DNA of 64,000 bases, taken from an uncultured candidatus Porisulfidus sp. Lineage in GTDB: Bacteria > Pseudomonadota > Gammaproteobacteria > Poriferisulfidales > Poriferisulfidaceae. Both the position numbers and the translations under genes were made by a program. The notes under the pieces were generated by a model. That model did not search any database, was not told where the DNA came from, and was given only the letters and a program-made list of their open reading frames with translations. Positions 31,601 to 62,435 of this stretch are shown here, piece after piece (within the stretch, counting starts at the first letter, position 1; every line of letters starts with the position of its first letter). The DNA lies in assembly GCA_965214545.1 (NCBI GenBank), contig OZ243950.1, positions 708,813 to 772,812 on the forward strand, written 5' to 3'.

Positions 31601-32140
31601 CTCCAGCGCGAACTGCAGGAAGTCCTCCTCGTGCTCCCGGTCGGTCTTGGTGACCTCCAGGTAGAAGCGCCCGGGAAAGTGGCGCGTCCAGTACTCCAGC
31701 GCTGCGGCCGCGGCCCGGCGGTTCTCGGCCACCATGGCCTGCCCGAGATCCCCGGCGACGCCGCCGGACAGGACGATCAGCCCGTCGCCGTGCTCCGCCA
31801 GGTCCCGGCGCAGGATCTGCGCCTGCCCGTTGCGGTAGCGCTCGCTCAGCAACCGACAGAGGTTCCGGTAGCCGGTCCGGTCCTGGCACAACAGCACCGC
31901 CCGGGCGGACCGGTCGCGCATGACCGGCATTTCGAGGTCAATCTCCGCGCCCAGGATCGGCTTGATGCCGTACTCCAACGCCGCCTTGTAGAACTTGACC
32001 GCCGCGAACAGGTTGTTGCGGTCGGTCAGGGCGACCGCCGGCATGCCCAACTCCGCCGCCCGCTCCATCAGCGGGGCGATGCGCACCAGACCGTCGTCCA
32101 GCGAGTACTCGGTGTGCAGGTGCAAATGAACGAAGTTCAC
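28685..32140 (-). CDS. dnaE: DNA polymerase III subunit alpha (GTG start overlapping the rnhB stop)
   Basis: VNFVHLHLHTEYSLDDG PHP-domain N-terminus and polymerase core. The 1677-aa ORF in the track is dnaE plus an out-of-frame read-through of the upstream genes. Confidence 0.9.
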   Translation of the reverse strand: MNFVHLHLHTEYSLDDGLVRIAPLMERAAELGMPAVALTDRNNLFAAVKFYKAALEYGIKPILGAEIDLEMPVMRDRSARAVLLCQDRTGYRNLCRLLSERYRNGQAQILRRDLAEHGDGLIVLSGGVAGDLGQAMVAENRRAAAAALEYWTRHFPGRFYLEVTKTDREHEEDFLQFALECAGEHDLPMVATNDVRFLSSDDFEAHEVRVCIRSQKRVNDPDRAREYSKEQHLRPESVMREAFESHPEALENTAQIAMRCNCRLDLGRTLLPAFPTPGGEPMDDYLDRLAGEGLARRLERLEASGQLVGPESDYQARLAHELGVIHQTGFSGYFVIVADFVAWARDNDIPVGPGRGSGAGSLVAYALGITGLDPLRYGLLFERFLNPDRVSMPDFDIDFCNLNRDRVIEYVRKRYGEDSVAQIITYGTMAAKAAIRDVGRVLGAPYSYCDRIARAVPNELGITLERAYRESPEFRELVSHPEDTTGAHLYEVALQLEGVARNASRHAAGVVIAPGALTDFTPLYFEARQPDVAITQFDMKDVEEIGLTKFDFLGLRTVTLLHQCLGTVNARLETPLDLGTLPLDDAQTYALLQQAQTTEVFQLESAGMRDLLIRMKPDCFDDLVALVALYRPGPLNSKMDVEYIQCKRDPSQIRYLHPDLEPILAPTFGVILYQEQVMQIARELAGYSLGETDLLRRAMGKKKPEEMAEHAERFQQGAARHGLAPYVAQKIFDLMKEFAAYGFNKSHSVAYALLAYQSAWFKAHHPDAFMAAAMSSQIDDTDKLALLCKEARDLGLLLKGPDVNESGYDFTVPAQGEVRYGLGAIKGLGQGLVTRLVEQRGEAPFAGLEDMCHRLDSRDYSERDLRALIHAGALDGFGASRRAMAEAAGRLKTQAQRVQMDRSVGQDSLFVQEPAAEFCALPQGEADYGVSQRLAHEFEALGLYLSGHPFLQHRARMQQMGAQPLSKVRRDAEKVVEAGRGRTWKVCLAGVLMKIAYPRNGEVAFLDIEDDQERLEVVTRDPGRAKEFKLGDLVMVQGEARVQPKAERGEPLRIRAESLYSLDQVSRQCAKQVRIVLNGDSGPDTVRAIKQALAEYRGGCEVSIEFVGRQGASRWVLDEDWKVSADEAALQALQDIAGVESTNVLYSPVDA

Positions 32141-32751
32141 GCGGCCGGCTCCTCCAGCGCCGCGCGCACCGGGGCATAGCTGCGCCGATGCTGCTGCCCG
32201 GGCCCGTGTTCGGACAGGGCGCGCCGGTGTTCCGCCGAAGGGTAGCCCTTGTGCCGGGCGAACCGGTAGCACGGCTCCTGTACATCGCAGTAGCGCATCC
32301 AGGCGTCGCGCGCCTCCTTGGCCAACACCGAGGCCGCGCTGATGCTGGCCACCCGGGCGTCCCCGCCGACCACCGCCGTCGCCGGGCACGGCAATTCCGG
32401 GCAGTGCCGCCCGTCCACCAGCACGTGCGCGACCCCGCCCGGCAGCCGGGCCACCGCTTCCGCCATGGCGCACAGGCTCGCCTGCAGGATGTTGATGCGG
32501 TCGATCTCCGGCGCCGGCACGAAGGCCACCGCGTACGCCCGGGCCGCGGCCCGGATCTGCACCGCCACGCGCGCCCGCCGCGCCGGCGTCAACACCTTGG
32601 AATCGGCCAGGCCCTCGATGCGGCAACCCGCCGGCAGCACCACGGCGGCGGCGGCCACCGGGCCGGCCAGCGCGCCCCGCCCCGCCTCGTCCACCCCCGC
32701 GACCCGGCCGGGGTCCGGCAGGGACGGCAACAACTCCATCGGGACAGGCAT
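32137..32751 (-). CDS. rnhB: ribonuclease HII
   Basis: VAGVDEAGRGALAGPV ... SKVLTPARRA ... HKGYPS motifs. Confidence 0.85.
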   Translation of the reverse strand: MPVPMELLPSLPDPGRVAGVDEAGRGALAGPVAAAAVVLPAGCRIEGLADSKVLTPARRARVAVQIRAAARAYAVAFVPAPEIDRINILQASLCAMAEAVARLPGGVAHVLVDGRHCPELPCPATAVVGGDARVASISAASVLAKEARDAWMRYCDVQEPCYRFARHKGYPSAEHRRALSEHGPGQQHRRSYAPVRAALEEPAA

Positions 32752-32887: not shown

Positions 32888-33835
32888 GTGACCCCCCCGC
32901 TTCGCACCGCCGTCATCGGGGTCGGCTACCTGGGGCGATTCCATGCGCAGAAGTACGCCGTCTTGGACGATTCCGAACTGGTCGGCGTGGCCGACACCGA
33001 TCCCGAACGCCTCGCCGCGGTCAGCGGCGAACTCGGGGTCCCCGGCTTCCCCGACTACCGGGACATCCTCGGCCGGGCAGATGCCGTCAGCATCGTCGTG
33101 CCGACCGCGAAACACTACGAGATCACCCGGGCCTGCCTGGAAGCCGACTGCCACGTGCTGGTCGAAAAACCCTTCACCTCCTCGGTCGAAGAGGCGACCC
33201 GGCTGATCGAACTCGCCCGCCAGAGACAGCGCCTCGTCCAGGTCGGCCTGCTGGAGCGGTTCAATTCGGCGTTCTGCGCCCTGATGCAGGGGCTGGAGAC
33301 CCCCCGCTTCATCGAAGTCCACCGCCTGGCGCCCTGGACCCCGCGCGGCGCCGAAATCGACGTGACCCTGGACCTGATGATCCACGACATCGACCTGGCC
33401 CTGACCGTGGTCGGCGAGGATCCCCACGACATCCGCGCCAGCGGCGCCGCCGTGATCGGCGACACCCTGGACATCGCCAACGCCCGGCTCGAATTCCCCG
33501 GCGGCTGCGTCGCCAATGTCACCGCCAGCCGCCTGAGCCGCCGCAGCGAGCGCCGGATGCGCGTCTTCCAGCACCATTCCTGCTACACCCTGGACCTGCA
33601 CAAGCGGGAACTGGACCGCTACCGCCTGCGTACAGGCGATGCGCCGCCCCCGGACCGCATCGAGCATGCGAACGAGGCCTTCCAGGACACCGATTCGCTG
33701 CGCGAGGAGATCCAGCACTTCATCCGCTGCGTCCGGCAGGGCACCGAACCCATGGTGCGCGGCGAGGACGGCCTGCGCGCCTTGCGCACCGCACTGGAAG
33801 TCGGTCAGCGCCTGCGCGAGACGACCCTCTCATGA
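32888..33835 (+). CDS. gnnA: Gfo/Idh/MocA-family UDP-GlcNAc 3-dehydrogenase (GnnA-like)
   Basis: Rossmann VIGVGYLGRFHAQ plus a Gfo/Idh/MocA C-terminal domain. Precedes a DegT aminotransferase and lpxB. Confidence 0.7.
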   Translation: MTPPLRTAVIGVGYLGRFHAQKYAVLDDSELVGVADTDPERLAAVSGELGVPGFPDYRDILGRADAVSIVVPTAKHYEITRACLEADCHVLVEKPFTSSVEEATRLIELARQRQRLVQVGLLERFNSAFCALMQGLETPRFIEVHRLAPWTPRGAEIDVTLDLMIHDIDLALTVVGEDPHDIRASGAAVIGDTLDIANARLEFPGGCVANVTASRLSRRSERRMRVFQHHSCYTLDLHKRELDRYRLRTGDAPPPDRIEHANEAFQDTDSLREEIQHFIRCVRQGTEPMVRGEDGLRALRTALEVGQRLRETTLS

Positions 33836-34929
33836 GCGCCCCCCTCCCCATCCTGGACCTGGCCGCGCAGTACGCGGCCCTGCAGGAGGAGATCGAGGCC
33901 GCCGCCGTGCGCGTGCTGCGCAGCGGCCGCTACGTGCTGGGCCCGGAAGTCGAGGCCCTGGAGGCGGAACTCGGCACGATGCTCGGCATCGACCACGTCG
34001 TCAGTTGCGCCTCCGGCACGGACGCGCTGAGCCTGTCCCTGCGCGCGCTCGGCATCGGGCCCGGCGACGACGTCCTGGTCCCGGCCTTCACCTTCGCCGC
34101 GCCGGCCGAGGCCGTCGCCCTGGCCGGGGCGCGCCCGGTGTTCGTGGACATCGACCCCGAGACCTTCCTGGTCGATCCCGACTCGTGCCGCAATGCCGTC
34201 ACGGACCGCACCCGCGCGGCCGTGGTGGTGCACCTGTACGGCCGGCCCGCCGACGTCTCTGCGATCCGTGCGGCGGTCGGGCCGGAGATCGCCATCGTCG
34301 AGGATTGCGCGCAAAGCTTCGGCGCCAGGACAGCAGGCCGGGCGACCGGCAGCTTCGGACAGGTCGCCTCCTTCAGTTTCTTTCCCAGCAAGAACCTCGG
34401 TGGATGCGGCGATGGCGGGGCGGTGGCGACCGGCGACGGCGAACTCGCCGCCCGGCTGCGCGCCTTGCGCAACCACGGCTCCCGCCGGTCCTACCACCAT
34501 GAAATGCTAGGCCTGAACAGCCGCCTCGACGAGATCCAGGCCGCGATCCTCCGCGTCAAACTGCCGCATGTCGCCGAGTGGAACGCGCAGCGCCGCCAAG
34601 TCGCCGGCCGCTATACCGAACGGCTCCAGGCACTGGACGGAATCCGCCCCCCGGCGGATGCACACGGCCACGTCTGGCACCAGTACACCCTGCTCAGCCC
34701 GCAGCGCGACGCCCTGCACCGGCAACTGGCCGAGGACGGCATCGAGAGCCGGGTCTACTACCCGATCCCCCTGCACCGGCAGGAGGCCTACGCGCCGTGG
34801 GCGGACGGGGTCTCGCTGCCGGCGGTCGAGCAGGTCTGCGCCCAGTGCCTGTCGCTGCCGATGTTCCCGGAACTCTCGCCCGCCCAGACCGAACAAGTCT
34901 GCGCCAGCCTCGCCCGTGCCGAACCCTGA
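33832..34929 (+). CDS. gnnB: DegT/DnrJ/EryC1-family PLP aminotransferase (GnnB-like UDP-3-keto-GlcNAc transaminase)
   Basis: 365 aa AAT-I fold with a conserved Lys region (FSFFPSKNLG). 4-nt overlap with gnnA. Confidence 0.75.
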   Translation: MSAPLPILDLAAQYAALQEEIEAAAVRVLRSGRYVLGPEVEALEAELGTMLGIDHVVSCASGTDALSLSLRALGIGPGDDVLVPAFTFAAPAEAVALAGARPVFVDIDPETFLVDPDSCRNAVTDRTRAAVVVHLYGRPADVSAIRAAVGPEIAIVEDCAQSFGARTAGRATGSFGQVASFSFFPSKNLGGCGDGGAVATGDGELAARLRALRNHGSRRSYHHEMLGLNSRLDEIQAAILRVKLPHVAEWNAQRRQVAGRYTERLQALDGIRPPADAHGHVWHQYTLLSPQRDALHRQLAEDGIESRVYYPIPLHRQEAYAPWADGVSLPAVEQVCAQCLSLPMFPELSPAQTEQVCASLARAEP

Positions 34930-34945
34930 ACCGGCCGCGCACCTG

Positions 34946-36070
34946 ATGCTGGTCTCCGGGGAGGCCTCCGGCGACCGCTACGCGGCAGAACTGGTCGAGG
35001 AACTTCGGGGGCGGCATCCTGCGTGGACCTGGTCCGGCATGGGCGGCGCAGCCTCGCGCGGGGCCGGCATCGAGCTGCAGGTCGACTCCACCGGGCTGGC
35101 CGTCGTCGGGCTGGTGGAGGTGCTGCGCCATTACCGGGAGATTCGCCGGGCACTGGGGGCCCTCAAGGCGCAGGTCCGGGCCCGCAGGCCCCGGCTGCTG
35201 GTGCTGATCGACTACCCGGAATTCAACCTGCGGCTCGCCCGGTTCGCGCATCGGCACGGCGTGCCGGTGCTGTTCTACATCAGCCCGCAAATCTGGGCCT
35301 GGCGGGCCTGGCGGGTGCACGCGATCCGGCGCCACGTCGACCACATGGCGGTGGTCTTCCCGTTTGAGCGGGATTTCTACGAGAAACACCGCGTCCCCGT
35401 CACCTATGTCGGGCACCCCCTGTGCGGACAGACACGCCCGACGCAGCCGCCCGAGGCCGTCCGCGCACGCTGGGGACTGGATCCCGAGCGCCCGGTGGTG
35501 GGCCTTTTTCCCGGCTCCCGGCGCAGCGAAATCGCCCACCTGATGCCGGTCTGCGCCGGGGCGGTGCGGGAACTGCGAGACCATCCCGCCCGACCGCAAT
35601 TCGCACTGGTGGTGCCGCCCGGGCTGAAACCCAACGACTACGCCCCGTGGCTGGGCGAACTGCCCGAAGTCCAATGCCTGCAGGAGCCGGTCTACGATGC
35701 CATGCAGGTGTGCGACATGGCGGCGGCGGCCTCCGGCACGGTCACGTTGCAGCTGGCCCTGATGCGCGTCCCGTTCTGCATGATCTATCGCCTGGCACCC
35801 CTGAGCTACTTATTGGCCCGCCTGCTGGTGCGCATCGACCGGTACTGCCTCGCGAACATCGTGGCAGGCGAAGACCTGGTTACCGAGTTGATCCAGGCCG
35901 ATGCGACGCCGCAACGGATTGCGGCCGCCCTCACGCCCTGGCTGGACGATCCGGCGAAACTTGATCCGGTGCGCGCGCGGCTGCAGAAAGTCGAGGAGCG
36001 GCTGGGGCCGGCAGCCGGCATGCGCCCACTTGCCGACTGCGCGGAACAGGTGATGTCGGCGTCCGGGTGA
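34946..36070 (+). CDS. lpxB: lipid-A-disaccharide synthase
   Basis: MLVSGEASGDRYAAELVEELR N-terminus and full-length LpxB similarity. An alternative GTG start lies about 27 nt upstream. Confidence 0.8.
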   Translation: MLVSGEASGDRYAAELVEELRGRHPAWTWSGMGGAASRGAGIELQVDSTGLAVVGLVEVLRHYREIRRALGALKAQVRARRPRLLVLIDYPEFNLRLARFAHRHGVPVLFYISPQIWAWRAWRVHAIRRHVDHMAVVFPFERDFYEKHRVPVTYVGHPLCGQTRPTQPPEAVRARWGLDPERPVVGLFPGSRRSEIAHLMPVCAGAVRELRDHPARPQFALVVPPGLKPNDYAPWLGELPEVQCLQEPVYDAMQVCDMAAAASGTVTLQLALMRVPFCMIYRLAPLSYLLARLLVRIDRYCLANIVAGEDLVTELIQADATPQRIAAALTPWLDDPAKLDPVRARLQKVEERLGPAAGMRPLADCAEQVMSASG

Positions 36071-36132
36071 TTCCGGGCGCAAGCGCCAGACAAAAACCCG
36101 GGAAAGCCCCGGCTTGCTGTCAGGTCTTCCGA

Positions 36133-36492
36133 CTAAGCCGGTGACTTGTCATCCGGATCGGCGGGGACGATCAGTTCCACCGAAGGATGGTCCGGAAACT
36201 TCGCGATCAGGCTCAGCCGTCCGCCCAAGGCTTCGACTTGCCGCCTGAGCGTCGAGACCAATAAGTCCTGGCGCGTCTCGATGCGCGAGATATTCTCCTG
36301 GGTAATTCCAAGGATCTCGGCAAGCTGCACCTGGGTCTGTTGCCGGAGCTTTCGCAGTTCCTGCAACGACATGATTTCGGCGATCAGTCCGTCCGTGCGT
36401 AATTCATCGCGGGAAGGCTGGCCGCTGGACGGCTTGACTGGCATCGTGCGGGGCTCCGGCAGCGGACGCTTTGGCTTGTCTTTGGTATTCAT
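36133..36492 (-). CDS. XRE-family helix-turn-helix protein (controller/antitoxin-like)
   Basis: LRKLRQQTQVQLAEILGITQENISRIE is a classic Cro/C1 HTH. Overlaps the preceding small ORF by ATGA. Confidence 0.7.
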   Translation of the reverse strand: MNTKDKPKRPLPEPRTMPVKPSSGQPSRDELRTDGLIAEIMSLQELRKLRQQTQVQLAEILGITQENISRIETRQDLLVSTLRRQVEALGGRLSLIAKFPDHPSVELIVPADPDDKSPA

Positions 36493-36794
36493 GGTGTTCT
36501 CCTTGCGCGAAACTCGCGAATGTTGGAATAGGTGGACTGGCGCTCTTGGTTAGTTCGCTTGTAGCCACGCCAGGTGAAGTCCGGGTAGTGATTCTGCTTT
36601 TCCGGCTCGACCAATTGCAGCCCCACGCTGCCGGCATAAGACGCAACCGCTTGCCTGGCCACAATTTCAAACAGAGTACTGATAACCTTGGTGTCGGAAC
36701 CCAAAGGATACACACGCGCCCGGCGATCCACGACCCCGCACAAGGAATAGCCGTTCTGGATTTCCGCAAGCGCATTCAGGATAAACTGCTTCAT
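36489..36794 (-). CDS. hypothetical 101-aa protein co-operonic with the Dam-like MTase and the XRE HTH (possible toxin or nuclease remnant)
   Basis: 4-nt overlaps on both sides. No family recognised from the sequence. Confidence 0.4.
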   Translation of the reverse strand: MKQFILNALAEIQNGYSLCGVVDRRARVYPLGSDTKVISTLFEIVARQAVASYAGSVGLQLVEPEKQNHYPDFTWRGYKRTNQERQSTYSNIREFRARRTP

Positions 36795-37621
36795 CCCACA
36801 ACCAATGCCTCCGTCATGCTGTTCCGCAAGTCCTCTGTTGATCCTAAATGGTAAAAGTGCGGGAAGGTTCGAACCTCATAATCGGAAAATTCTTCATGTA
36901 ATCGGTTGTTCTTCCGATATTTGTTCTCAGACCACATTGAATAGAGAAATGGACATGGCAAAGCCTTCAAACTACGCTCCAGTTGTGTTGCGTCTGTGTC
37001 GGTCCAAGAATTGAAATAATCCGTGAATCGCCCGGCGTATGGCGGGTCGCAATAGACGAAATCACCTTCGCCAGCTTTGCCCAGAATGTCGGTCCAATCT
37101 GCACAGACAAACGTCCACGCCTTTCCTTCCATACACTCTGCGGCCCGCTGCACTTGGTTGCAAATCTTCGTGATGTAGGCAGGGCGGTAGCGTTCCGGCT
37201 TTCGGCAGAATGGGGTATTGAAGCGCCCCTTCTTGTTGAAGCGCACCAAGCCGTTGAAGCACGCTCGATTCAGGAATAGAAAGTCATGCGGATCGCCACT
37301 GTCGTTGAAGCGTTCCCGGACTCGGTAGAAGTGATCCTGCCCGTCCCGCAGAAGGCGTGCGCCTTCTCGCTCCAGGAACGCTCGCACTGTCGCGCTGGTG
37401 AGGGTCCCGGCCTGTATCGCCGCATAGAAGCGCACCAAGTGCGGGTTTGCATCGCCTAGCAGTGCGCGTTCAGGCTTGATGTTGAAGGGGACGACGGCAG
37501 ACCCCAAGAAAGGCTCTATCCAGCGACCAGAGCCATCCCAATCGACACTATCCCGGATGAACGGAATCGCTTTCGTCTTGATCCCTTGTATCTTGAGCGG
37601 CGGGACTTGAACCGCGCTCAT
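36791..37621 (-). CDS. DNA N6-adenine methyltransferase, Dam/D12 class
   Basis: DPPY catalytic motif (FVYCDPPYAGRF) with an upstream AdoMet-binding region. 276 aa. Confidence 0.8.
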   Translation of the reverse strand: MSAVQVPPLKIQGIKTKAIPFIRDSVDWDGSGRWIEPFLGSAVVPFNIKPERALLGDANPHLVRFYAAIQAGTLTSATVRAFLEREGARLLRDGQDHFYRVRERFNDSGDPHDFLFLNRACFNGLVRFNKKGRFNTPFCRKPERYRPAYITKICNQVQRAAECMEGKAWTFVCADWTDILGKAGEGDFVYCDPPYAGRFTDYFNSWTDTDATQLERSLKALPCPFLYSMWSENKYRKNNRLHEEFSDYEVRTFPHFYHLGSTEDLRNSMTEALVVG

Positions 37622-37804
37622 CTCCTTGCCCCCGAATCCAGCCCGTTATCTACAATCAGCTCAGCATACTTGGGCCTCTTGCGCGCCATGCCAGCGACCA
37701 CGACGGACACCCTCTCGCATCGCCTGACCCCGGCCATCAAGACTCCAGGTTCCAGTCCGACAAGCGAATCAAGTGCAACGCCCCTTCCCATGTGGATAAT
37801 GTAA

Positions 37805-37851
37805 TCTACTGATTCTATACTGTCAAGGGCATGATTGGCGGTGCGGCATGT
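37805..37851. repeat. left copy of an imperfect 47-bp direct repeat (CTACTGATTCTATACTGTCAAGGGCATGATTGGCGGTGCGGCATGTC)
   Basis: About 85% identical to 38690..38737. The two copies bracket an 840-bp low-GC segment. Confidence 0.6.
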
Positions 37852-38033
37852 CTGCTTCCTCTCTCAGATCCCGCCGGTTGCCGGAATCGTTGCAGTTACT
37901 AATTGCAACCAGGCTGAACAAGCAACTACCGCCCTTTTTCTTTGTGCCTATGGGCAAGATGTGTGAGAGTTACTGTGGTAGAGTCTGGGGGGTCATAACC
38001 AATCTTGCAGAATCGCGGCCCAGACTGGGCAAA

Positions 38034-38348
38034 CTATCCAAAAACTGCTGCCAGTACTGCAAGCATAACCGCAATCACAACACCAATCAACCATCTTTGC
38101 ATACTTGCTTCCCTAGCCGAAATCAGAGTTTTCACGCTTTCTAAATCTGCTTTTGTCGGCAAATAATCAAGTCTGGTTTTTACTTCCCCCATTTGAATTT
38201 CAAGATGGCGCAAACGATTTCCAGTCCCATCGTCGTCGCCCCCTCCCCTGTTATCAGGTGACTCTGATGGTTCATCAGTAGTAACTGCTTTTAGATGACT
38301 TTCAGCCACGGCTATATTAGGAGCTAGTCTGCTTCGAGCCATTCCCAC
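38034..38348 (-). CDS. small phage-like membrane protein (coiled coil + C-terminal TM; XhlA/holin-associated-like architecture)
   Basis: 104 aa; C-terminal WLIGVVIAVMLAVLAAVFG helix. Low GC. Confidence 0.35.
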   Translation of the reverse strand: MGMARSRLAPNIAVAESHLKAVTTDEPSESPDNRGGGDDDGTGNRLRHLEIQMGEVKTRLDYLPTKADLESVKTLISAREASMQRWLIGVVIAVMLAVLAAVFG

Positions 38349-38596
38349 AGGGATTTTTGTGTGTGGCCTGAAAATGCCGAGTTCATTTTGAACACAGCGC
38401 CAGAGGATTGCCCAACGCGACTGTCACCTTTGATACCGACTGCTGTTGCAATTTCGCTGGTTACGGCAGAGGGTTCTTCTGTGCGAATCAGATAAAAGGT
38501 GTCAGTATATTTATATCGGTCTTTGTATGCGTCAAACAGTCGCTTCTCGACCTCTTCGTTCGGCTCCCACAGAACGACAGCAAACAGTTTTTTCAT
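38324..38596 (-). CDS. hypothetical protein (low-GC, accessory)
   Basis: 90-aa ORF inside the repeat-flanked low-GC segment. Confidence 0.3.
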   Translation of the reverse strand: MKKLFAVVLWEPNEEVEKRLFDAYKDRYKYTDTFYLIRTEEPSAVTSEIATAVGIKGDSRVGQSSGAVFKMNSAFSGHTQKSLWEWLEAD

Positions 38597-38663
38597 GGCG
38601 AGGTATCCGAGTCGGATGATGCATTATAGCAGGGCTTGACTTTCTCCCTGCTTTCCTGAGAGC

Positions 38664-38682
38664 ACGCGGTTTGTCAACCTTT
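38664..38682. repeat. copy 3 (variant) of the junction motif: CGCGGTTTGTCAACCTTTT
   Basis: Matches GCGCGTTTGTCAACCTTT with one indel. Located between the lpxA stop and the accessory segment. Confidence 0.4.
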
Positions 38683-38689
38683 TACAGAA

Positions 38690-38737
38690 TCCACACAACC
38701 TACTGGTTCTATAGCGGTAAGGAGCATGATTGGCAGT
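38690..38737. repeat. right copy of the 47-bp direct repeat
   Basis: CTACTGGTTCTATAGCGGTAAGGAGCATGATTGGCAGTGCGGCATGCC. Confidence 0.6.
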
Positions 38738-38759
38738 GCGGCATGCCCCGCCAATCGAG

Positions 38760-39590
38760 TCAGTCCGAACTTTTCTCGCGGATGATGCCGCGGCGGCTCT
38801 CCGCGATGAACACTCGCATCTGTTCCACTTCCGGATGCTCCCCAGCCAGTTGCCGGATCTCGTCCTCCGACGGCCCGCCCGATACGCGGACCAGCAATTT
38901 GTAGGCCCGCGACAAGGCCTCCATCGTCTCCTCGGGGAAGCCGGCCCGGCGCAATCCTTCACGGTTCAGCCCGTAAGGCCGGGCCAGGTTGCCCGACGCC
39001 AGCACGAACGGCGGCAGATCCTTGTTCAAGGCGGAGCCCATACCGCTGAACGCATGGCGCCCGATGCGACAGAACTGGTGCACCAGGGTGAAGCCGCCCA
39101 AGCTCGCGTGGTCCCCGACCTCGACATGGCCGGCCAGCGTCGCGCCGTTGGCGAAGGTCGCGTCGTTCCCGATTATGCAGTCGTGCGCAATGTGCACGTA
39201 CGCCATGATCCAGTTCCGGCTGCCGACCCGGGTGCAGTTCTCGCCCTGGGCCGTGCCGCAATTGAGGGTCGCGAATTCGCGGATGGTGTTGCCGTCGCCG
39301 ATCACCAGTTCGCTGTCCTCGCCGGCGTACTTCTTGTCCTGCGGGACCTCGCCGACCGAGGCGAACTGGAAGATCCGGTTCTCCCGGCCCACGGTGGTGC
39401 GCCCGGTCACCACGGCGTGCGGGCCCACCCAGGTGTCGGCGCCGATCCGCACGTGCGGGCCGATGACCGCATACGGGCCGATGTCCGCCGTCGGGTCGAT
39501 CTGCGCCCCGGCGTCCACCACGGCCGTCGGATGAATGCTCAAGTCTCGAAGCCCGGTTACGCCTCTGCAGGCAGTTCCTTGAACATGCAC
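38760..39590 (-). CDS. lpxA: UDP-N-acetylglucosamine O-acyltransferase
   Basis: Left-handed beta-helix hexapeptide repeats; aligns with E. coli LpxA. The true start may be the TTG near 39530 (SIHPTAVVD). Confidence 0.9.
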   Translation of the reverse strand: MHVQGTACRGVTGLRDLSIHPTAVVDAGAQIDPTADIGPYAVIGPHVRIGADTWVGPHAVVTGRTTVGRENRIFQFASVGEVPQDKKYAGEDSELVIGDGNTIREFATLNCGTAQGENCTRVGSRNWIMAYVHIAHDCIIGNDATFANGATLAGHVEVGDHASLGGFTLVHQFCRIGRHAFSGMGSALNKDLPPFVLASGNLARPYGLNREGLRRAGFPEETMEALSRAYKLLVRVSGGPSEDEIRQLAGEHPEVEQMRVFIAESRRGIIREKSSD

Positions 39591-40015
39591 ATGATCCCGG
39601 CGCTGGCCACGATCTCGCCGGCGACCGAGGCGGTCGCGTCGAACGAGGCGCAGTTGCGGCGAATCCGCCGCAGTTTCACGGCAACCTCCAGCTGGTCGCC
39701 GGGTACGACCGGTTTCTTGAAGCGGGCCTTGTCGACCCCGACGAACATGTACAGGTTGTCGTCCTCCGGGCAGTATTCCGGCGTTTTGAATACCAACAGG
39801 CCCGAAGCCTGGGCCATCACCTCCAGGACCAGGACCCCCGGGAAAATCGGGATCCCGGGGAAATGCCCCTGGAAGAACGGCTCGTCCACCGTGATGTTCT
39901 TGATCGCCCGGATCGATACCCCGGGATCGATCTCCAGGACCCGGTCCACCAGCAGGAATGGATGACGGTGCGGCAGCAAACGCTGGATCTCCTGGATGTC
40001 AAACCCTTCGCTCAC
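39557..40015 (-). CDS. fabZ: 3-hydroxyacyl-ACP dehydratase (GTG start overlapping the lpxD stop)
   Basis: LPHRHPFLLVDRV...GHFPGIPIFPGVL hot-dog fold motifs. Confidence 0.9.
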   Translation of the reverse strand: MSEGFDIQEIQRLLPHRHPFLLVDRVLEIDPGVSIRAIKNITVDEPFFQGHFPGIPIFPGVLVLEVMAQASGLLVFKTPEYCPEDDNLYMFVGVDKARFKKPVVPGDQLEVAVKLRRIRRNCASFDATASVAGEIVASAGIMCMFKELPAEA

Positions 40016-41031
40016 GACTTCTCTCCTTGCTTCAGGGCCCGCACGATCCGGTCGAGCTGCTTGAAGCGGGCGACGTTGCGCAACCAGTCCGCATTCTCCT
40101 GGATGGACGTGCCGGAACTGTAGGCACCGGCGCGGGTCAGGGTCTGGTTCGCCTTGGACATGCCGGTAATGATAACCCCATCGGCCAACTCCACGTGGCC
40201 CTGCACCCCGGCCGCCCCCCCGATCTGGCAGTAACGGCCGATCCGGGCGCTGCCCGCGATGCCGGCATTGCCGGCGATGGCGCAGTGGTCGCCGACCTGA
40301 ACGTTGTGCGCGATTTGCACCTGGTTGTCGATCTTGACGCCGCAGCCGATCACGGTGTCGTCCAACATGCCGCGGTCGATGGTGCTGTTGGCCCCGATCT
40401 CGCAGTCGTCCCCGATCCGCACGCCGCCGCGGTGCACCAGCTTGACCCATTGCCGGTCCTGCCGGGCATAACCAAAACCGTCGGATCCGATCACCACCCC
40501 GGGCCAGACCTGCACCCGGTCACCGAGCCGGACCCGCCCGTGCAGGGTGACGCGGGCATGCAGGACGCATCCGTCGCCCAAGGTCACGCCCTCGCCGATC
40601 ACGCAGTGCGGGCCGAGCACGCTGCCCGCGCCGATGCGTGCCTCCGCGCCCACCACGCAGCCGAAACCCACCTGCACCGGCGCCGCCAGCTGCGCGCGGT
40701 CGTCGACCAGGGCGCCGGGGTGGACGGCGTGCACCACCTCGGGGATCGGGTACAGGGCCTGCAACACGCGCGCCATGCCCAGGTAGGGATCCTTGCAGGA
40801 CAGCGCCGGGGCCGGGCAATCGGTCCGGTCCGGTTCGCGCAGCAGCACCACGCTCGCTTGAGTCTGTTGCAGTTCGGCCCGGTGACGGGCGTGACTGTAG
40901 AAAGAAATAGAGCCGGGCCCGGCGGCGCCCAGGGAGGACGCGTGATCGATCAGGAGGTCCGGAACCGGCGACGGGTCGGAAATCCGCGCGTCGGCGATTT
41001 CCGCGATCTGACCCAGGGTCAGTGACACCAC
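40012..41031 (-). CDS. lpxD: UDP-3-O-acylglucosamine N-acyltransferase
   Basis: 339 aa, hexapeptide repeats, conserved position between skp and fabZ. Confidence 0.9.
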   Translation of the reverse strand: MVSLTLGQIAEIADARISDPSPVPDLLIDHASSLGAAGPGSISFYSHARHRAELQQTQASVVLLREPDRTDCPAPALSCKDPYLGMARVLQALYPIPEVVHAVHPGALVDDRAQLAAPVQVGFGCVVGAEARIGAGSVLGPHCVIGEGVTLGDGCVLHARVTLHGRVRLGDRVQVWPGVVIGSDGFGYARQDRQWVKLVHRGGVRIGDDCEIGANSTIDRGMLDDTVIGCGVKIDNQVQIAHNVQVGDHCAIAGNAGIAGSARIGRYCQIGGAAGVQGHVELADGVIITGMSKANQTLTRAGAYSSGTSIQENADWLRNVARFKQLDRIVRALKQGEKS

Positions 41032-41038
41032 AATTCGG

Positions 41039-41581
41039 TTACGGATTATTCATCTTCTTGAGCACCCGCTCCGTGATGTCGATGCGCTTGCTGGCATACA
41101 GGGTCACGGCCTGGGTGAGAATCAGGTCGAATCCCTCCTCGCTCGCGATCTCGGCGACCACCGTGTTGACCTCTTCCTGCAACTTGCCGAGTTCCTCGTT
41201 GCGGCGGATCGCCAGGTCCTCGCGCACTTCGTCGCGCTTGCGCTCGAAGTCGCGGCGCCGGCGCTGCACTTCGCGCTCCTGCTCAAGCCGCTGTTCCTCG
41301 GACATCACGTCGCTCTCGTTGGTCAGCGCCTGGGCCAGGTCGGAGACTTCCTTATGGAGTTTTTCGAGTTCGTCGTTGCGGGGCGCGAATTCGTTCTGGA
41401 GTTTCTGCCGGGCCGCCACCGCCTGCGGAGAATCCTCCAGCAAGCGCCCGACGTCCACGAAGCCGACTTTGGCGTTTTGCGCGGGGGCGGCCCCACTCAT
41501 GGCAAGCAGTGCCACAGCGACCGCGTGCGACCAGAAAAGGGATGGTTTCTTCATCAGTTGAATGCTCCTGTTGGCGCTCAT
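41039..41581 (-). CDS. skp: periplasmic chaperone Skp (OmpH)
   Basis: Signal peptide followed by a charged coiled-coil body. Alternative start at 41552. Confidence 0.8.
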   Translation of the reverse strand: MSANRSIQLMKKPSLFWSHAVAVALLAMSGAAPAQNAKVGFVDVGRLLEDSPQAVAARQKLQNEFAPRNDELEKLHKEVSDLAQALTNESDVMSEEQRLEQEREVQRRRRDFERKRDEVREDLAIRRNEELGKLQEEVNTVVAEIASEEGFDLILTQAVTLYASKRIDITERVLKKMNNP

Positions 41582-41594
41582 TTTACACGGTCGC

Positions 41595-43949
41595 CTACAG
41601 CGACCCCAGATTGAACTGGTAGGACTCGGTCTTGTCGGTTTCGTGGTCGTTGATCGGCAGCGACAGGCTCATCGAGACCCCCCCGAGCGGCGACAGCCAG
41701 GAGATGCCCACGCCGAACGACGCGCGCAGCTCCTGGAGGTCGAAATCCTCCGCCTCGCTGAACACGTAGCCCGAATCCCAGAACAGGGCGCCGCGCAGGT
41801 TGGCCTCGTCGATGAACGGGATCGGGAACGACAATTCGGCCGAATAATTCAGCTTCAGGTTGCCCCCGTACGGCTCGTCGAACTCGTCGCGCGGGGCCAA
41901 GGTGTTGACCTCGTATCCGCGCACGCTCTTCGGGCCGCCGATCACGAACTTCTGCGAGAACGGCAGGTCGTCGGTGTCGCCGTAGCCGTCCCCGTAGGCG
42001 GCCTCGCCCTTCAGCGCGAAGGTCAGGTCCTCGGTCACCTTCAGGTACTCCTCCTGGACGTAGGACAGGACGTAGTACTCCAGGCCGCTGGCGGGCACCG
42101 TGGCGCGCGCCGATATCTGGCGCAAGGAACCCTCGCGCGTGAACAGGCTGCGGTCGCGAGTGTCGTAGGCGAAGGAACCGATCAGCGACAGGTTGTAGTA
42201 GGTGGCGTCGCAATAGACCGGGTTGCCGCCGGTACTCGGGCTGTACGAGACCTCGATCTCGCCGACGAACAGGCAATCGCCATCGTGATCCGAGAGGAAC
42301 TGCCGCACCAGGAACGACGAGCCGGTGCCCGCGTCGAAGTTGATCCTCTGGAAGCGGGTGGCGAACGTGAACGTGCTGTCGTCGGCGATCGGGATGCCGT
42401 AGCTGAGGTAGGCCGCGAAGTCGCGCGACTCGTACTGGGTCTGCTGGTCGGCGCCCGCCGTGTCCACCTTGCGCGTGCTGAAGCCAAAACTGCGGCTGAC
42501 GCCGTTGATGGTGTAGTACGGGTTGTAGAAGTCGAAGGAGTACCGGGTCGAGGTCTCGCTGTTGTCGAAGTGGATGCCGACCCGGTTGCCGGTGCCGAAG
42601 AAGTTCTCCTGCTCCACGCCGGCCGCCAGCGACAGGCCGCTGCCGCTGCTGAAGCCCGCCCCGGCGGTGAAGTTGCCGGCCAGCCGCTCGGTGACGGTGA
42701 TGGTGAGGTCGACCTGGTCGTTGGTGCCCGGGACCCGGGTCTGCGTGATCTCGACGGTGTCGACGTACGGCAGCCGTTGCAGGCGCCGGCGCGAACGCTC
42801 CAGCTTCGGGGACGACAGCCAGGCCCCCTCCATCTGCCGCAGCTCCCGGCGCAGCACCTCGTCCTGGGTCGTGTAGTTGCCCACGATGTCGATCCGGCGC
42901 ACGTACACCCGCTGGCCCGGATCGATGAAGAAATTGATCGACACCTCGCCCGCTTCCTCATCGAGGTCGGTGACCGGGTTGACCTTGGCGAAGGAATGCC
43001 CTTCCTCGCCGAGCCGGGACTTCAGGCGGCTGCTCGAGGCCTGCGCCCGCGAACTGGAGAAGTACTCGCCCGCCTGGATGGTCAGCAGCGCGCTCAGCTC
43101 CTCTTGCGGCACGATGAAGATGCCGGACAGGGACACCTCGCGCACCACGAAACGGCGTCCCTCGTTGATGTGGACCGTGACATAGATGCCCTCGCGGTCC
43201 GGGCTCAGCGAGATCTGCGCCGAATCCACCCGGAACTTCAAAAACCCGCGGTTCAGGTAGAACGAGCGCAGGCGCTCCAGGTCGCCCGACAACTGCAACT
43301 TCGAGTACTTGCCGGTATTGCCCATGATGTCGTACCAGGCCGGCTCTGAGGATTCGAACAGCTCCAGCAGCCGGTCCTCGGTATACGACACGTTGCCGAC
43401 CACGTGGACCTGCCGGATCGTCGCCGGCTCGCCCTCCACCACGTTGATGTGGATCGCCACCCGGTTCTCGCCCAGGTCGCGGACGTCGACCGCGACTTCC
43501 ACGTTGTAGAAGCCGATTGCATGGTACTGCTGCAGGATCTCGTTGTTGAGCCGGTCCAGCAGCGGCTGGTTGAAGATCCGGCCGGTCGCGATGCCGGCGT
43601 CCTCCAGCACCTCCTCCAGGGTGTCGTCCTTGATCACCTCCAGGCCCTCGAAGGCGATTTCGGTGATGGCCGGGCGCTCCACCACGCGCACCACCAGCAC
43701 GTTGCCGCGGCGCGACACCTCGACGTCGCTGAACAACTGCGACTGGAACAGCGCCCGCACCAGCTCGCTGGTTCGGGCCACGTCGAAATCCTCGCCCACC
43801 TCCACCGGGAGATAGGTGAACACGGTGGCCGCCTCCAGGCGCTGCAGGCCCTGCAGTTCGATGTCTTCCACCACGAACGCGAACCCGCGCGGGGCCACCA
43901 GCATCAGGGCCAGACACAGGAAGATTGGACCGGATTTTGAACGACGCAT
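41595..43949 (-). CDS. bamA: outer membrane protein assembly factor BamA
   Basis: POTRA repeats plus a C-terminal Omp85 barrel ending ...YQFNLGSL. Signal peptide MRRSKSGPIFLCLALMLVAPRGFA. Confidence 0.9.
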   Translation of the reverse strand: MRRSKSGPIFLCLALMLVAPRGFAFVVEDIELQGLQRLEAATVFTYLPVEVGEDFDVARTSELVRALFQSQLFSDVEVSRRGNVLVVRVVERPAITEIAFEGLEVIKDDTLEEVLEDAGIATGRIFNQPLLDRLNNEILQQYHAIGFYNVEVAVDVRDLGENRVAIHINVVEGEPATIRQVHVVGNVSYTEDRLLELFESSEPAWYDIMGNTGKYSKLQLSGDLERLRSFYLNRGFLKFRVDSAQISLSPDREGIYVTVHINEGRRFVVREVSLSGIFIVPQEELSALLTIQAGEYFSSSRAQASSSRLKSRLGEEGHSFAKVNPVTDLDEEAGEVSINFFIDPGQRVYVRRIDIVGNYTTQDEVLRRELRQMEGAWLSSPKLERSRRRLQRLPYVDTVEITQTRVPGTNDQVDLTITVTERLAGNFTAGAGFSSGSGLSLAAGVEQENFFGTGNRVGIHFDNSETSTRYSFDFYNPYYTINGVSRSFGFSTRKVDTAGADQQTQYESRDFAAYLSYGIPIADDSTFTFATRFQRINFDAGTGSSFLVRQFLSDHDGDCLFVGEIEVSYSPSTGGNPVYCDATYYNLSLIGSFAYDTRDRSLFTREGSLRQISARATVPASGLEYYVLSYVQEEYLKVTEDLTFALKGEAAYGDGYGDTDDLPFSQKFVIGGPKSVRGYEVNTLAPRDEFDEPYGGNLKLNYSAELSFPIPFIDEANLRGALFWDSGYVFSEAEDFDLQELRASFGVGISWLSPLGGVSMSLSLPINDHETDKTESYQFNLGSL

Positions 43950-43953
43950 CGGC

Positions 43954-62073: not shown

Positions 62074-62149
62074 TGGTGGGCCATCAGGGACTCGAACCCC
62101 GAACCTGCTGATTAAGAGTCAGTTGCTCTACCAATTGAGCTAATGGCCC
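62074..62149 (-). tRNA. tRNA-Lys (anticodon CUU)
   Basis: Reverse complement GGGCCATTAGCTCAATTGGTAGAGCAACTGACTCTTAATCAGCAGGTTCGGGGTTCGAGTCCCTGATGGCCCACCA. Cloverleaf folds; anticodon loop CTCTTAA. Confidence 0.85.
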
Positions 62150-62158
62150 ATCCTCGGA

Positions 62159-62235
62159 TGGGGTGAGCGACGGGATTTGAACCCGCGACCTCAGGAGCCA
62201 CAATCCTGTGCTCTACCGACTGAGCTACGCTCACC
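62159..62235 (-). tRNA. tRNA-His (anticodon GUG, with G-1)
   Basis: Reverse complement GGTGAGCGTAGCTCAGTCGGTAGAGCACAGGATTGTGGCTCCTGAGGTCGCGGGTTCAAATCCCGTCGCTCACCCCA. Confidence 0.9.
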
Positions 62236-62246
62236 GACGACCGACT

Positions 62247-62322
62247 GGCGCGCCCGGCAGGACTCGAACCTGCGACCCTCGGTTTAGAAGACCGATGCTC
62301 TAATCCACTGAGCTACGGGCGC
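62247..62322 (-). tRNA. tRNA-Arg (anticodon UCU)
   Basis: Reverse complement GCGCCCGTAGCTCAGTGGATTAGAGCATCGGTCTTCTAAACCGAGGGTCGCAGGTTCGAGTCCTGCCGGGCGCGCCA. Confidence 0.9.
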
Positions 62323-62358
62323 CATCATCCTTGAGTCGAGGCTCCGGACGCTGTCTGC

Positions 62359-62435
<77 letters not shown>

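What the first reader, a model, noticed from the sequence alone, without database searches (positions are those of the whole stretch)
36133..38700. Low-GC islet between lpxB and lpxA carrying a Dam-like methyltransferase three-gene cassette
About 2.6 kb of clearly lower GC content separates two genes that are adjacent in most bacteria. It encodes, with 4-nt overlaps, a D12-class N6-adenine MTase (DPPY), a 101-aa protein of no recognisable family, and an XRE HTH protein, followed by two small phage-like genes. The cassette could be an R-M system with a controller protein and a degraded or novel small nuclease. It could also be an orphan MTase linked to a HigB/HigA-like toxin-antitoxin pair. Either reading makes it an anti-phage or addiction module inserted into the lipid A locus.
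Basis: partly seen in the sequence, partly recalled or inferred. Interest (0 to 1): 0.55.

Follow-up and report, generated by a model that had tools for sequence, protein, structure and literature searches.

The report
Decayed EcoRV-type restriction-modification relic
The low-GC stretch between lpxB and lpxA holds the remains of an EcoRV-type restriction-modification system: the DNA methylase gene is intact but the nuclease gene has lost its catalytic core, which is an ordinary stage in the decay of such systems.

Summary
The low-GC islet is real (GC 0.46-0.60 against 0.65-0.73 in the flanks), but it is a mosaic, not one cassette.

- **The 101-aa "unknown" ORF** is an EcoRV-family endonuclease (PDB EcoRV, E 2.8e-23). 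A 426-bp in-frame deletion has removed catalytic D90/K92 and the DNA-recognition loop.
- **The methyltransferase** is intact. It is 48% identical to M.EcoRV and 87% to methylases that still have an intact nuclease partner.
- **The XRE HTH gene** is neither a controller protein nor an antitoxin of this cassette. It sits in the same lpxA/lpxB gap in sister genomes (about 90% DNA identity) that have no methylase. It is absent from every related M-R locus examined.
- **Origin.** The closest M-R units lie inside a 2.9-kb IS1595-family transposon (tnp-M-R-ORF3, 29-bp terminal inverted repeats). The window keeps only an internal 1.3-kb piece: 26 transposase codons, M, the deleted R, and 28 ORF3 codons fused in frame to the resident HTH gene.
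- **Decay pattern.** Among close relatives R is broken in five different ways in five of eight distinct loci, while M is intact in all of them.
- **The two small upstream genes** are a separate two-gene cassette of unknown function.

Verdict: an orphaned, probably GATATC-specific methylase plus a dead nuclease. This is a new member of a known kind and of low interest.

The parts
36098..36112 (-). Terminator-like GC hairpin followed by a T-run, just downstream of the HTH ORF and facing the lpxB stop. Likely the end of the M-deltaR-HTH transcript.
   Evidence: CCGGGGCTTTCCCGG GTTTTTGTCT. Consensus scan only; function is inferred.
36133..36400 (-). Resident part of the XRE HTH gene (codons ~31-119, including the whole HTH domain). 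It is orthologous to the 115-117-aa HTH gene in the lpxA/lpxB gap of sister genomes.
   Evidence: blastn at 80-85% identity to L083-L086, starting exactly at 36400. Proteins 75-79% identical. Synteny. dN/dS 0.25-0.32, against 0.23 among the relatives.
36401..36492 (-). 5' part of 'ORF3', the small gene that follows R in the transposon. It is fused in frame to the resident HTH gene, and its ATG overlaps the deltaR stop (ATGA).
   Evidence: DNA homology to L090 5494-5551 reaches window 36443. tblastn with the L090 61-aa ORF3 matches 36492-36400 (45% identity, E 0.001). The native HTH N-terminus (VDRKTSKTLEEVLNQL...) is absent.
36489..36794 (-). deltaR: an EcoRV-family endonuclease gene with a 426-bp (142-codon) in-frame internal deletion. 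Residues 1-76 (up to the PDFT motif) are joined to the last ~25 residues. The junction is at about 36571-36573, with a 2-nt CT microhomology.
   Evidence: phmmer against PDB EcoRV, E 2.8e-23, aligning query 4-82 to EcoRV 5-83 and query 68-96 to EcoRV 209-236. PF09233 positions 6-70 of 244. Alignment to the full-length relatives P0031 and P0028. blastn and pairwise alignment to L090.
36791..37621 (-). Intact alpha-class (D12) N6-adenine DNA methyltransferase of the M.EcoRV type, now without a working nuclease partner.
   Evidence: PF02086 and TIGR00571. PADLOC MTase_II PDLC03264, 2.5e-120. 48% identity over the full length to M.EcoRV of pLG13. Motifs EPFLGSAVV and DPPY match those of methylases that have an intact R partner. 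dN/dS 0.15 against L090.
37624..37701 (-). Last 26 codons of an IS1595-family transposase gene. This is the only remnant of the transposase that precedes M in related elements.
   Evidence: tblastn with the L090 57-aa transposase C-terminal ORF: 65% identity, E 1.4e-6. DNA alignment of 37705-37618 to L090 3777-3864. The L091 upstream ORF carries Zn_ribbon_IS1595 and DDE_Tnp_IS1595.
37697..37850 (-). Resident leader with a sigma-70-like promoter (TTGACA-17-TACATT, 37826 to 37798). In sister genomes this promoter drives small membrane-protein genes and the HTH gene; here it faces M.
   Evidence: Alignment A1 and pairwise alignment to L083 9445-9596 and L084 9140-9260. Promoter scan scores 10 of 12.
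37796..37850 (.). Left copy of an imperfect ~55-nt direct repeat. The 29-nt core is at 37822-37850.
   Evidence: Family D1, 25 of 29 identical. Extension with one indel seen in alignment A1.
38034..38348 (-). 104-aa protein with a coiled coil and a C-terminal transmembrane helix. Second gene of a separate two-gene cassette of unknown function.
   Evidence: phrog_6324 9.6e-7 and DUF2730 0.009, below the curated cutoff. A homologous 94-aa partner follows the 93-aa gene in L173.
38324..38596 (-). 90-aa protein with no family hit. First gene of the two-gene cassette. This segment has the lowest GC in the islet (0.478 for 37851-38716).
   Evidence: No hit in Pfam, NCBIfam, PHROGs or PADLOC. Only 5 homologs, 69-75% identical. 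The pair is conserved in a different context in L173. GC.
38690..38745 (.). Right copy of the ~55-nt direct repeat. It abuts the lpxA stop and overlaps a hairpin downstream of lpxA.
   Evidence: (D1, I17).

Best explanation
The core of the islet (about 36401-37701) is an immobilised internal fragment of an IS1595-family transposon whose cargo was an EcoRV-type Type II restriction-modification system. The gene order in the transposon is tnp-M-R-ORF3.

The fragment replaced the resident small membrane-protein gene(s) and the first ~26 codons of a resident XRE HTH gene in a variable gap between the convergent lpxA and lpxB genes.

**What remains**
- The last 26 codons of the transposase gene.
- An intact methyltransferase gene.
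- A nuclease gene with a 426-bp in-frame deletion. The deletion removes catalytic D90/K92 and the DNA-recognition loop.
- 28 codons of ORF3, fused in frame to the resident HTH gene.

**How it works now (inferred)**
- A resident promoter at 37826-37798 transcribes M, deltaR and the chimeric HTH gene as one unit, ending at the hairpin at 36112-36098.
- M methylates adenine in its target site, most likely GATATC.
- Nothing cuts DNA, so the locus gives neither restriction nor post-segregational killing.
- The methylase is an orphan that is either drifting towards loss or is kept because it protects the genome from related EcoRV-type systems circulating in the community.

The two small genes at 38034-38596 are an unrelated two-gene cassette bracketed by a ~55-nt imperfect direct repeat.
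For: **Shown by tool results**
- deltaR aligns to EcoRV residues 5-83 and 209-236 and to the full-length relatives P0031 and P0028. The missing 426 bp is mapped against L090, with a CT microhomology at the junction.
- D74, D90 and K92 are the EcoRV catalytic residues (PMC4081073).
- M is 48% identical to M.EcoRV, with conserved motifs, and scores 2.5e-120 against the R-M-type MTase_II model.
- Sister genomes L083-L087 are about 90% identical in lpxA and lpxB. They carry [small TM genes]-[HTH] in the gap and no methylase. Homology with the window breaks at 38750 and resumes at 36400, inside the HTH gene.
- The leader at 37697-37850 is resident sequence.
- L090 has 29-bp inverted repeats enclosing tnp-M-R-ORF3. 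The same repeats are present in L091 and L093. The transposase domains are confirmed.
- Transposase remnants lie upstream of M in four contexts: the window, the L090 lineage, L082 and L174.
- Census of close relatives: R is broken by deletion, nonsense codons, frameshifts or a 2.4-kb insertion in 5 of 8 distinct loci, while M is intact in all.
- M-R has a lower GC than each of its hosts.
- Promoter and terminator consensus matches.
Against: - No expression or methylation data exist. GATATC specificity is inferred from homology only, and GATATC is not depleted in the window (9 sites against 6.3 expected).
- dN/dS of the retained deltaR codons (0.19) is not higher than that of M (0.155). The deletion is therefore either recent or the remnant is still constrained; the counts are too small to tell.
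- Inverted repeats were demonstrated in only one lineage (L090/L091/L093). None was found in L082 or in the window, and no target-site duplication was seen in L090.
- The window's own genome could not be retrieved from the contig collections. An assembly error at the deletion cannot be formally excluded.
Confidence: 0.85

Rival explanations
1. A working R-M system: M, plus a novel miniature nuclease (the 101-aa protein), plus an HTH controller protein.
For: The three genes are co-directional and overlap by 4 nt. EcoRV itself has an HTH gene next to R in pLG13.
Against: The 101-aa protein is EcoRV residues 1-76 joined to about 216-243. It lacks D90/K92 and the recognition loop. The HTH gene is resident in sister genomes without M-R and is absent from all related M-R loci. 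Its first 28 codons derive from ORF3 through a fusion.
Confidence: 0.02
2. An orphan methylase next to a HigB/HigA-like or RelE/ParE-like toxin-antitoxin pair (101-aa toxin, HTH antitoxin).
For: The sizes and the 4-nt overlap resemble TA pairs. The HTH protein has weak sub-threshold similarity to XRE-type antitoxin models (HTH_37 2.4e-4; Y4mF/HipB-type 4.7e-4).
Against: The 'toxin' is unambiguously EcoRV-family. The adjacency of the two genes was created by a recent recombination: in sister genomes the gene upstream of the HTH gene is a small membrane-protein gene.
Confidence: 0.02
3. The deltaR mini-protein is a selected product rather than junk. It might be a dominant-negative subunit that poisons incoming EcoRV-type nucleases, or it might be kept open only to preserve translational coupling from M through to the chimeric HTH gene.
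For: - Both rearrangements are in frame (the R deletion and the ORF3::HTH fusion), and both ATGA overlaps are kept.
- The retained codons show dN/dS 0.19, similar to M.
- A second, independent in-frame deletion variant exists (P0021: residues 1-63 joined to 225-239).
- Related R-M transposons circulate in related metagenomes.
Against: - Two in-frame events have roughly a 1-in-9 chance expectation.
- Most other lesions in relatives are frameshifts, stops or insertions.
- The low dN/dS is equally explained by a recent deletion, given only 16.5 non-synonymous and 21.5 synonymous differences.
- There is no functional data.
Confidence: 0.07
4. An assembly artefact: a metagenomic chimera or a collapsed region created the islet or the deletion.
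For: The window appears to come from a metagenome-assembled genome; the identical proteins are recorded on a single 1.85-Mb contig. The exact proteins could not be traced to a contig record.
Against: A chimera would need two junctions 1.3 kb apart, each falling inside conserved resident sequence, with both flanks collinear with sister genomes. Independent R lesions in many other assemblies show that such decay is real.
Confidence: 0.03

Closest known systems
EcoRV restriction-modification system (E. coli plasmid pLG13, NC_005019.1)
   Same: Same methylase family: 48% identity over the full length, with the same motif order and the DPPY motif. Same nuclease family: about 45% identity for intact relatives. 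The recognition-loop sequence GSGNT(T/A)N(I/V)GS is conserved in intact relatives.
   Different: - In pLG13, M is divergent from a C(HTH)-R operon. In this family M and R are co-directional, overlap by 4 nt, have no C gene, and are followed by a 61-aa ORF3.
- The window's R lacks 142 internal codons, including D90/K92.
IS-linked or transposon-borne R-M systems (Furuta et al. 2010, PMC2853133; Takahashi et al. 2011, PMC3031569)
   Same: R-M genes are linked to a transposase. The R-M unit entered by substitution for resident DNA, so that closely related genomes differ at the site (abstracts).
   Different: In the closest relatives M-R-ORF3 lies inside the 29-bp terminal inverted repeats of a single IS1595-family element as passenger genes. 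The window keeps neither inverted repeat nor a usable transposase, so it is not mobile.
Orphan DNA methyltransferases derived from decayed R-M systems (for example the discussion in PMC6471742 and PMC12707154; otherwise general knowledge)
   Same: M is intact next to a recognisable R pseudogene. The same pattern recurs in relatives: R is broken in 5 of 8 distinct loci and M is intact in all.
   Different: This is not a conserved, lineage-wide orphan such as Dam or CcrM. It is absent from the sister genomes at this locus, and it scores far better against an R-M-type model than against orphan-methylase models.
C-protein (controller) regulated Type II R-M systems
   Same: A small HTH gene lies next to an R gene and overlaps it by 4 nt.
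   Different: The HTH gene lies downstream of R, is native to the host locus, and became joined to the cassette through a gene fusion. It does not travel with the M-R unit.

Membership tests
D12/Dam-class (alpha) N6-adenine DNA methyltransferase | Significant match to the family profiles, above the curated cut-offs | tested here: met
   PF02086: 123.6 bits against a cutoff of 22. TIGR00571: 174.4 bits against a cutoff of 114.85.
D12/Dam-class (alpha) N6-adenine DNA methyltransferase | Catalytic motif IV (DPPY), located C-terminal to the AdoMet-binding motif I | tested here: met
   VYCDPPYAGRF lies after EPFLGSAVV. Both motifs are the same as in relatives that keep an intact R (L090, L092, L095). 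Motif I reads G-S-A instead of G-x-G, but this is family-wide in this group.
D12/Dam-class (alpha) N6-adenine DNA methyltransferase | Methylation activity and target site (GATATC expected) | not testable with these tools
   Inferred only, from 48% identity to M.EcoRV and the conserved recognition loop of the cognate nucleases.
EcoRV-family PD-(D/E)XK restriction endonuclease | Sequence homology to EcoRV | tested here: met
   PF09233 1.3e-10; PDB EcoRV 2.8e-23; PADLOC REase_II 8.5e-22.
EcoRV-family PD-(D/E)XK restriction endonuclease | Complete catalytic triad D74, D90, K92 | tested here: not met
   The PD motif (D74 equivalent) is present in HYPDFT. The segment carrying D90/K92 (IALDVKTTY in relatives) is deleted. 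The residues are as given in PMC4081073.
EcoRV-family PD-(D/E)XK restriction endonuclease | DNA-recognition loop (GSGNTTNIGS in EcoRV) | tested here: not met
   It lies inside the 142-codon deletion. It is present in P0031, P0028 and P0027.
Functional Type II R-M system | Cognate methylase together with an active endonuclease | tested here: not met
   M is intact and R is internally deleted.
C-protein controlled R-M system | The HTH controller gene co-occurs with the R-M genes across related systems | tested here: not met
   No HTH gene is present next to M-R in L081, L082, L090-L093, L095 or L174. The HTH gene is present without M-R in L083-L087.
HigB/HigA or RelE/ParE-type toxin-antitoxin pair | The upstream small ORF belongs to a toxin family | tested here: not met
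   The only hits are to the EcoRV family. No toxin model was hit in Pfam, NCBIfam or PADLOC.
IS1595-family transposon (as a mobile unit) | DDE transposase gene and terminal inverted repeats | tested here: not met
   The window has only 26 C-terminal transposase codons and no copy of the inverted repeat (up to 7 mismatches allowed). Both features are present in L090, L091 and L093.
Integrase-mediated genomic island or prophage remnant | Integrase, a tRNA or other att site, phage structural or lysis genes | tested here: not met
   There is no integrase or tRNA near the islet; the tRNAs lie at 62074-62435. No phage hallmark hits. The only candidate feature is a ~55-nt imperfect direct repeat around the two-gene cassette, whose meaning is unresolved.

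The most novel reading that the evidence does not exclude
The in-frame deltaR mini-protein (the N-terminal 76 residues plus the C-terminal 25 residues of an EcoRV-type enzyme) may be a selected product. It sits between an intact methylase and a chimeric XRE regulator and is translationally coupled to both. It could, for example, act as a dominant-negative subunit or decoy that, together with the orphan methylase, immunises the host against the IS1595-borne EcoRV-type R-M transposons circulating in the same communities. A second, independent in-frame variant (P0021) would then be convergent evolution rather than chance.
Probability: 0.05. Interest if true: 0.55.

Novelty: new member of a known kind. 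Interest (0 to 1): 0.22.

Why it matters
On its own it matters little. It is a textbook snapshot of how a restriction-modification system dies: the nuclease is lost first, the methylase persists, and the mobile vehicle is eroded. It does correct an annotation trap, because the 101-aa and 119-aa ORFs would otherwise be called a hypothetical protein and a regulator or antitoxin.

Two side products are mildly useful. One is a compact IS1595-family transposon that carries a complete EcoRV-type R-M system as cargo. The other is a set of closely related loci in which the nuclease gene has been inactivated independently in at least five ways while the methylase stays intact. That set could serve as a small natural data set on the R-M life cycle.

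Tried and rejected
- **Tracing the source genome.** The exact MTase and the identical 101-aa protein (P0001) are not in the contig look-up. The genome-contig scan with lpxA found nothing closer than 66% identity, so the source genome is not in that collection. Sister genomes were reached instead through homologs of the HTH protein.
- **Viral origin of the two small genes.** Viral-contig scans with them gave no relative and one 25-residue match.
- **Structured RNA.** An Rfam scan of 35800-39000 gave no hit at E up to 0.1.
- **GATATC avoidance.** Tested as a footprint of past restriction: 9 sites observed against 6.3 +/- 2.5 expected, so there is no signal. The window is too short and too GC-rich for this test to have power.
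- **dN/dS to date the deletion.** Synonymous sites are saturated for the 76-78% identity pairs. For the L090 pair, M (0.155) and deltaR (0.19) cannot be told apart.
- **Transposon ends.** I looked for the transposon inverted repeats in the window, L081, L082, L092 and L095, and for an 8-bp target duplication in L090. None was found.
- **Fragments as a family of short proteins.** I considered whether the many short EcoRV-like homologs (57-176 aa) form a genuine family of short proteins. This was rejected: their ends differ, several have out-of-frame tails, the DNA shows frameshifts, stops or insertions, and their 90% clusters contain full-length members.
- **Structure prediction of the 101-aa ORF.** Not run, because the sequence match to the crystallised enzyme already answers the question of its fold.
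- **IS1595 literature.** A literature search for IS1595 passenger R-M genes gave nothing specific.
Full report
**1. What is in the sequence**

- The region from about 36100 to 38750 has GC 0.46-0.60, against 0.65-0.73 in the flanks and 0.654 for the whole window.
- On the left is lpxB on the + strand (PF02684, stop at 36070). It is preceded by a DegT aminotransferase gene and a GFO/IDH/MocA oxidoreductase gene.
- On the right is lpxA on the - strand (stop at 38760), followed by fabZ, lpxD, skp and bamA. The two lipid A genes are therefore convergent here.
- All islet ORFs lie on the - strand:

| Coordinates | Product |
|---|---|
| 38324-38596 | 90 aa |
| 38034-38348 | 104 aa |
| 37618-37791 | 57-aa ORF |
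| 36791-37621 | 276-aa methyltransferase |
| 36489-36794 | 101 aa |
| 36133-36492 | 119-aa XRE HTH protein |

- The last three overlap by ATGA.

**2. The 101-aa ORF is a gutted EcoRV-type nuclease**

- It matches Pfam Endonuc-EcoRV (1.3e-10, profile positions 6-70 of 244), PADLOC REase_II (8.5e-22) and the crystallised EcoRV enzyme (E 2.8e-23).
- HMMER aligns it in two pieces. Residues 4-82 align to EcoRV 5-83, and residues 68-96 align to EcoRV 209-236.
- Alignment with the full-length relatives P0031 (243 aa) and P0028 (233 aa) shows that residues 1-76, ending in HYPDFT, are joined directly to the C-terminal WRGYKRTNQERQ...FRARRTP.
- Against the closest DNA relative (L090, 87% identical) exactly 426 bp (142 codons) are missing. 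The junction has a 2-nt CT microhomology at about 36571-36573.
- The deleted part carries the equivalents of D90 and K92, which together with D74 form the EcoRV catalytic site (PMC4081073).
- It also carries the GSGNT(T/A)N(I/V)GS recognition loop seen in intact relatives. That this loop reads the bases in EcoRV is from my own knowledge of the EcoRV structures.
- The protein cannot be a nuclease.

**3. The methyltransferase is intact and of the R-M type**

- It is 48% identical over its full length to M.EcoRV of plasmid pLG13 and 79-87% identical to the methylases of related M-R pairs.
- Its EPFLGSAVV and DPPY motifs are the same as in relatives that still have an intact R partner.
- It scores 2.5e-120 against an R-M-type methylase model, far better than against the orphan-methylase models.
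- dN/dS against L090 is 0.155.
- The target site is inferred to be GATATC. GATATC is not depleted in the window (9 sites against 6.3 expected), but that test has little power.

**4. The HTH gene belongs to the host locus, not to the cassette**

- Its homologs (75-79% identical over the C-terminal 88 residues) sit in sister genomes whose lpxA and lpxB are about 90% identical in DNA to the window. These are L083-L087, from roughly 1.8-Mb uncultured Gammaproteobacteria.
- Those genomes have the same synteny: bamA-skp-lpxD-fabZ-lpxA, then one or two small membrane-protein genes (97 and 83 aa), then the HTH gene, facing lpxB-degT-gfo.
- None of them has a methylase there. One has an extra PhdYeFM antitoxin gene and another an rve transposase gene, so the gap is a variable hotspot.
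- Conversely, none of the related M-R loci has an HTH gene downstream of R.
- DNA homology between the window and the sister genomes stops at 38750 and resumes at 36400, which is inside the HTH ORF at about codon 31.
- The first 28 codons of the window's HTH ORF are instead homologous to a 61-aa 'ORF3'. In L090, L091 and L093 this ORF overlaps the R stop codon in the same ATGA fashion.
- The 119-aa ORF is therefore an in-frame ORF3::HTH chimera that lacks the native N-terminal helix but keeps the whole HTH domain. Its dN/dS (0.25-0.32) is close to the value among the sister genomes (0.23), so it may still function.

**5. Where the M-R unit came from**

- In L090 a 29-bp inverted repeat (2802-2830 and 5695-5723; 24 of 29 positions match) encloses four genes: a frameshifted IS1595-family transposase gene (Zn_ribbon_IS1595 and DDE_Tnp_IS1595), M, R and ORF3. 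The whole unit is 2.9 kb. The same repeats are found in L091 and L093.
- Transposase remnants precede M in three further contexts. These are L082 (63% aa identity), L174, and the window itself. In the window, 37624-37701 encodes the last 26 transposase codons (65% identity, E 1.4e-6).
- Immediately upstream, 37697-37850 is again resident sequence. It is homologous to the region downstream of lpxA in the sister genomes and contains a TTGACA-17-TACATT promoter.
- The acquired piece therefore spans about 37701 down to about 36401 (1.3 kb). It replaced at least 0.48 kb of resident DNA, namely the small membrane-protein gene(s) and the HTH 5' end.
- It has neither inverted repeat nor a usable transposase, so it cannot move.
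- Its GC (0.54) is below that of the host. The same is true of the M-R unit in two other hosts (0.51 against 0.56 and 0.61).

**6. The nuclease is lost again and again**

- In the close group (M at least 79% identical, M and R overlapping) M is intact in all nine loci.
- R is intact or nearly so in L090, L095/L096 and L092.
- R is broken in five loci, each in a different way:
  - the window: in-frame deletion;
  - L091: two stop codons;
  - L093/L094: a 2.4-kb insertion at codon 47;
  - L081: a frameshift and a stop;
  - L082: several frameshifts.
- L090, L091 and L093 are the same locus in strains that are 97-99% identical. R was therefore lost twice within one lineage.
- This explains why all 27 database homologs of the 101-aa ORF are fragments of 57-176 aa, even though their 90% clusters include full-length members.
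- A second in-frame deletion variant exists: P0021, in which residues 1-63 are joined to 225-239.
- More distant EcoRV-family proteins are mostly full length.

**7. The two upstream genes**

- The 90-aa and 104-aa genes (GC 0.478) have no counterpart in the sister genomes at this site.
- They are bracketed by an imperfect ~55-nt direct repeat (core at 37822-37850 and 38717-38745) that duplicates the resident promoter region.
- The pair recurs, 70-75% identical, in another roughly 1.76-Mb genome (L173). There it lies in a neighbourhood containing helicase, methylase and RelA/SpoT-like genes.
- Their function is unknown, and the 'phage-like' label is not supported.

**8. Interpretation and verdict**

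- The locus is an orphaned EcoRV-type methylase with a dead nuclease, left by an eroded IS1595 R-M transposon in a variable gap between lpxA and lpxB.
- Inference: M, deltaR and the chimeric HTH gene are probably co-transcribed from the resident promoter to the hairpin at 36098-36112.
- It is not an active defence or addiction module, not a C-protein system and not a toxin-antitoxin pair.
- Linkage of R-M genes to transposases, insertion by substitution, and methylases that outlive their nucleases are all documented (PMC2853133, PMC3031569, PMC6471742). This is therefore a new member of a known kind.
- One less ordinary reading cannot be excluded. The in-frame mini-R might be retained for a function, because both rearrangements are in frame and its dN/dS is not raised. 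I rate this at about 5%.

Noticed in passing
window 32888-36070 (+) versus 38760-43991 (-); also L083-L087: A GFO/IDH/MocA oxidoreductase gene and a DegT aminotransferase gene sit directly upstream of lpxB. The gene types resemble gnnA/gnnB. The three-gene block is inverted relative to bamA-skp-lpxD-fabZ-lpxA, so lpxA and lpxB are convergent. The arrangement is conserved in the sister genomes and hints at a GlcN3N-type lipid A.
   Followed up: partly
L090 2802-5723 (also L091 2223-6947 and L093 880-6248): A 2.9-kb IS1595-family element whose 29-bp terminal inverted repeats enclose the transposase gene plus a complete EcoRV-type M-R pair and a conserved 61-aa ORF3 with no family hit. It is a compact transposon with an R-M system as cargo. 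No target-site duplication was seen.
   Followed up: partly
window 37851-38716; L173 8001-8570: A conserved two-gene cassette: a ~90-aa soluble protein with only five known homologs, plus a ~100-aa coiled-coil protein with a C-terminal TM helix. In the window it is bracketed by a ~55-nt imperfect direct repeat. In L173 it lies among defence-like genes. Its function and its means of moving are unknown.
   Followed up: partly
L084-L087 9289-9904; L083 9614-9907: Sister genomes carry one or two tandemly duplicated genes for small proteins (97 and 83 aa) with an N-terminal TM helix and a coiled coil. They lie between lpxA and the HTH gene and have no Pfam hit. In the window these are the genes that the M-R fragment displaced.
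   Followed up: no
L083 10437-10679; L085 10452-11726: The same lpxA/lpxB gap has picked up a PhdYeFM antitoxin gene in one sister genome and an rve-family transposase gene in another. The site is a recurrent landing place for small mobile genes.
   Followed up: no
P0024 (91 aa) and P0021 (80 aa; L175 and L176): Other decay products of the same M-R family. P0024 is an M N-terminus fused to an R fragment. P0021 is a second independent in-frame internal deletion of R, seen in two different metagenome samples.
   Followed up: partly
L084 13716-14079, L086 13937-14149, L087 13734-14063; window 32137-32751: The RNase HII gene (rnhB) between the gfo gene and dnaE is called as a fragment or is missing in several sister assemblies, whereas it is an intact 204-aa ORF in the window. 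This could be gene decay or assembly and gene-calling noise in those MAGs.
   Followed up: no
L174 3559-6423: A further copy of the family in a 4.1-Mb genome: an IS1595 transposase fragment, a shortened M (256 aa) and a 71-aa R fragment, abutted by an IS605 OrfB/TnpB gene. In this copy both M and R appear to be decaying.
   Followed up: no
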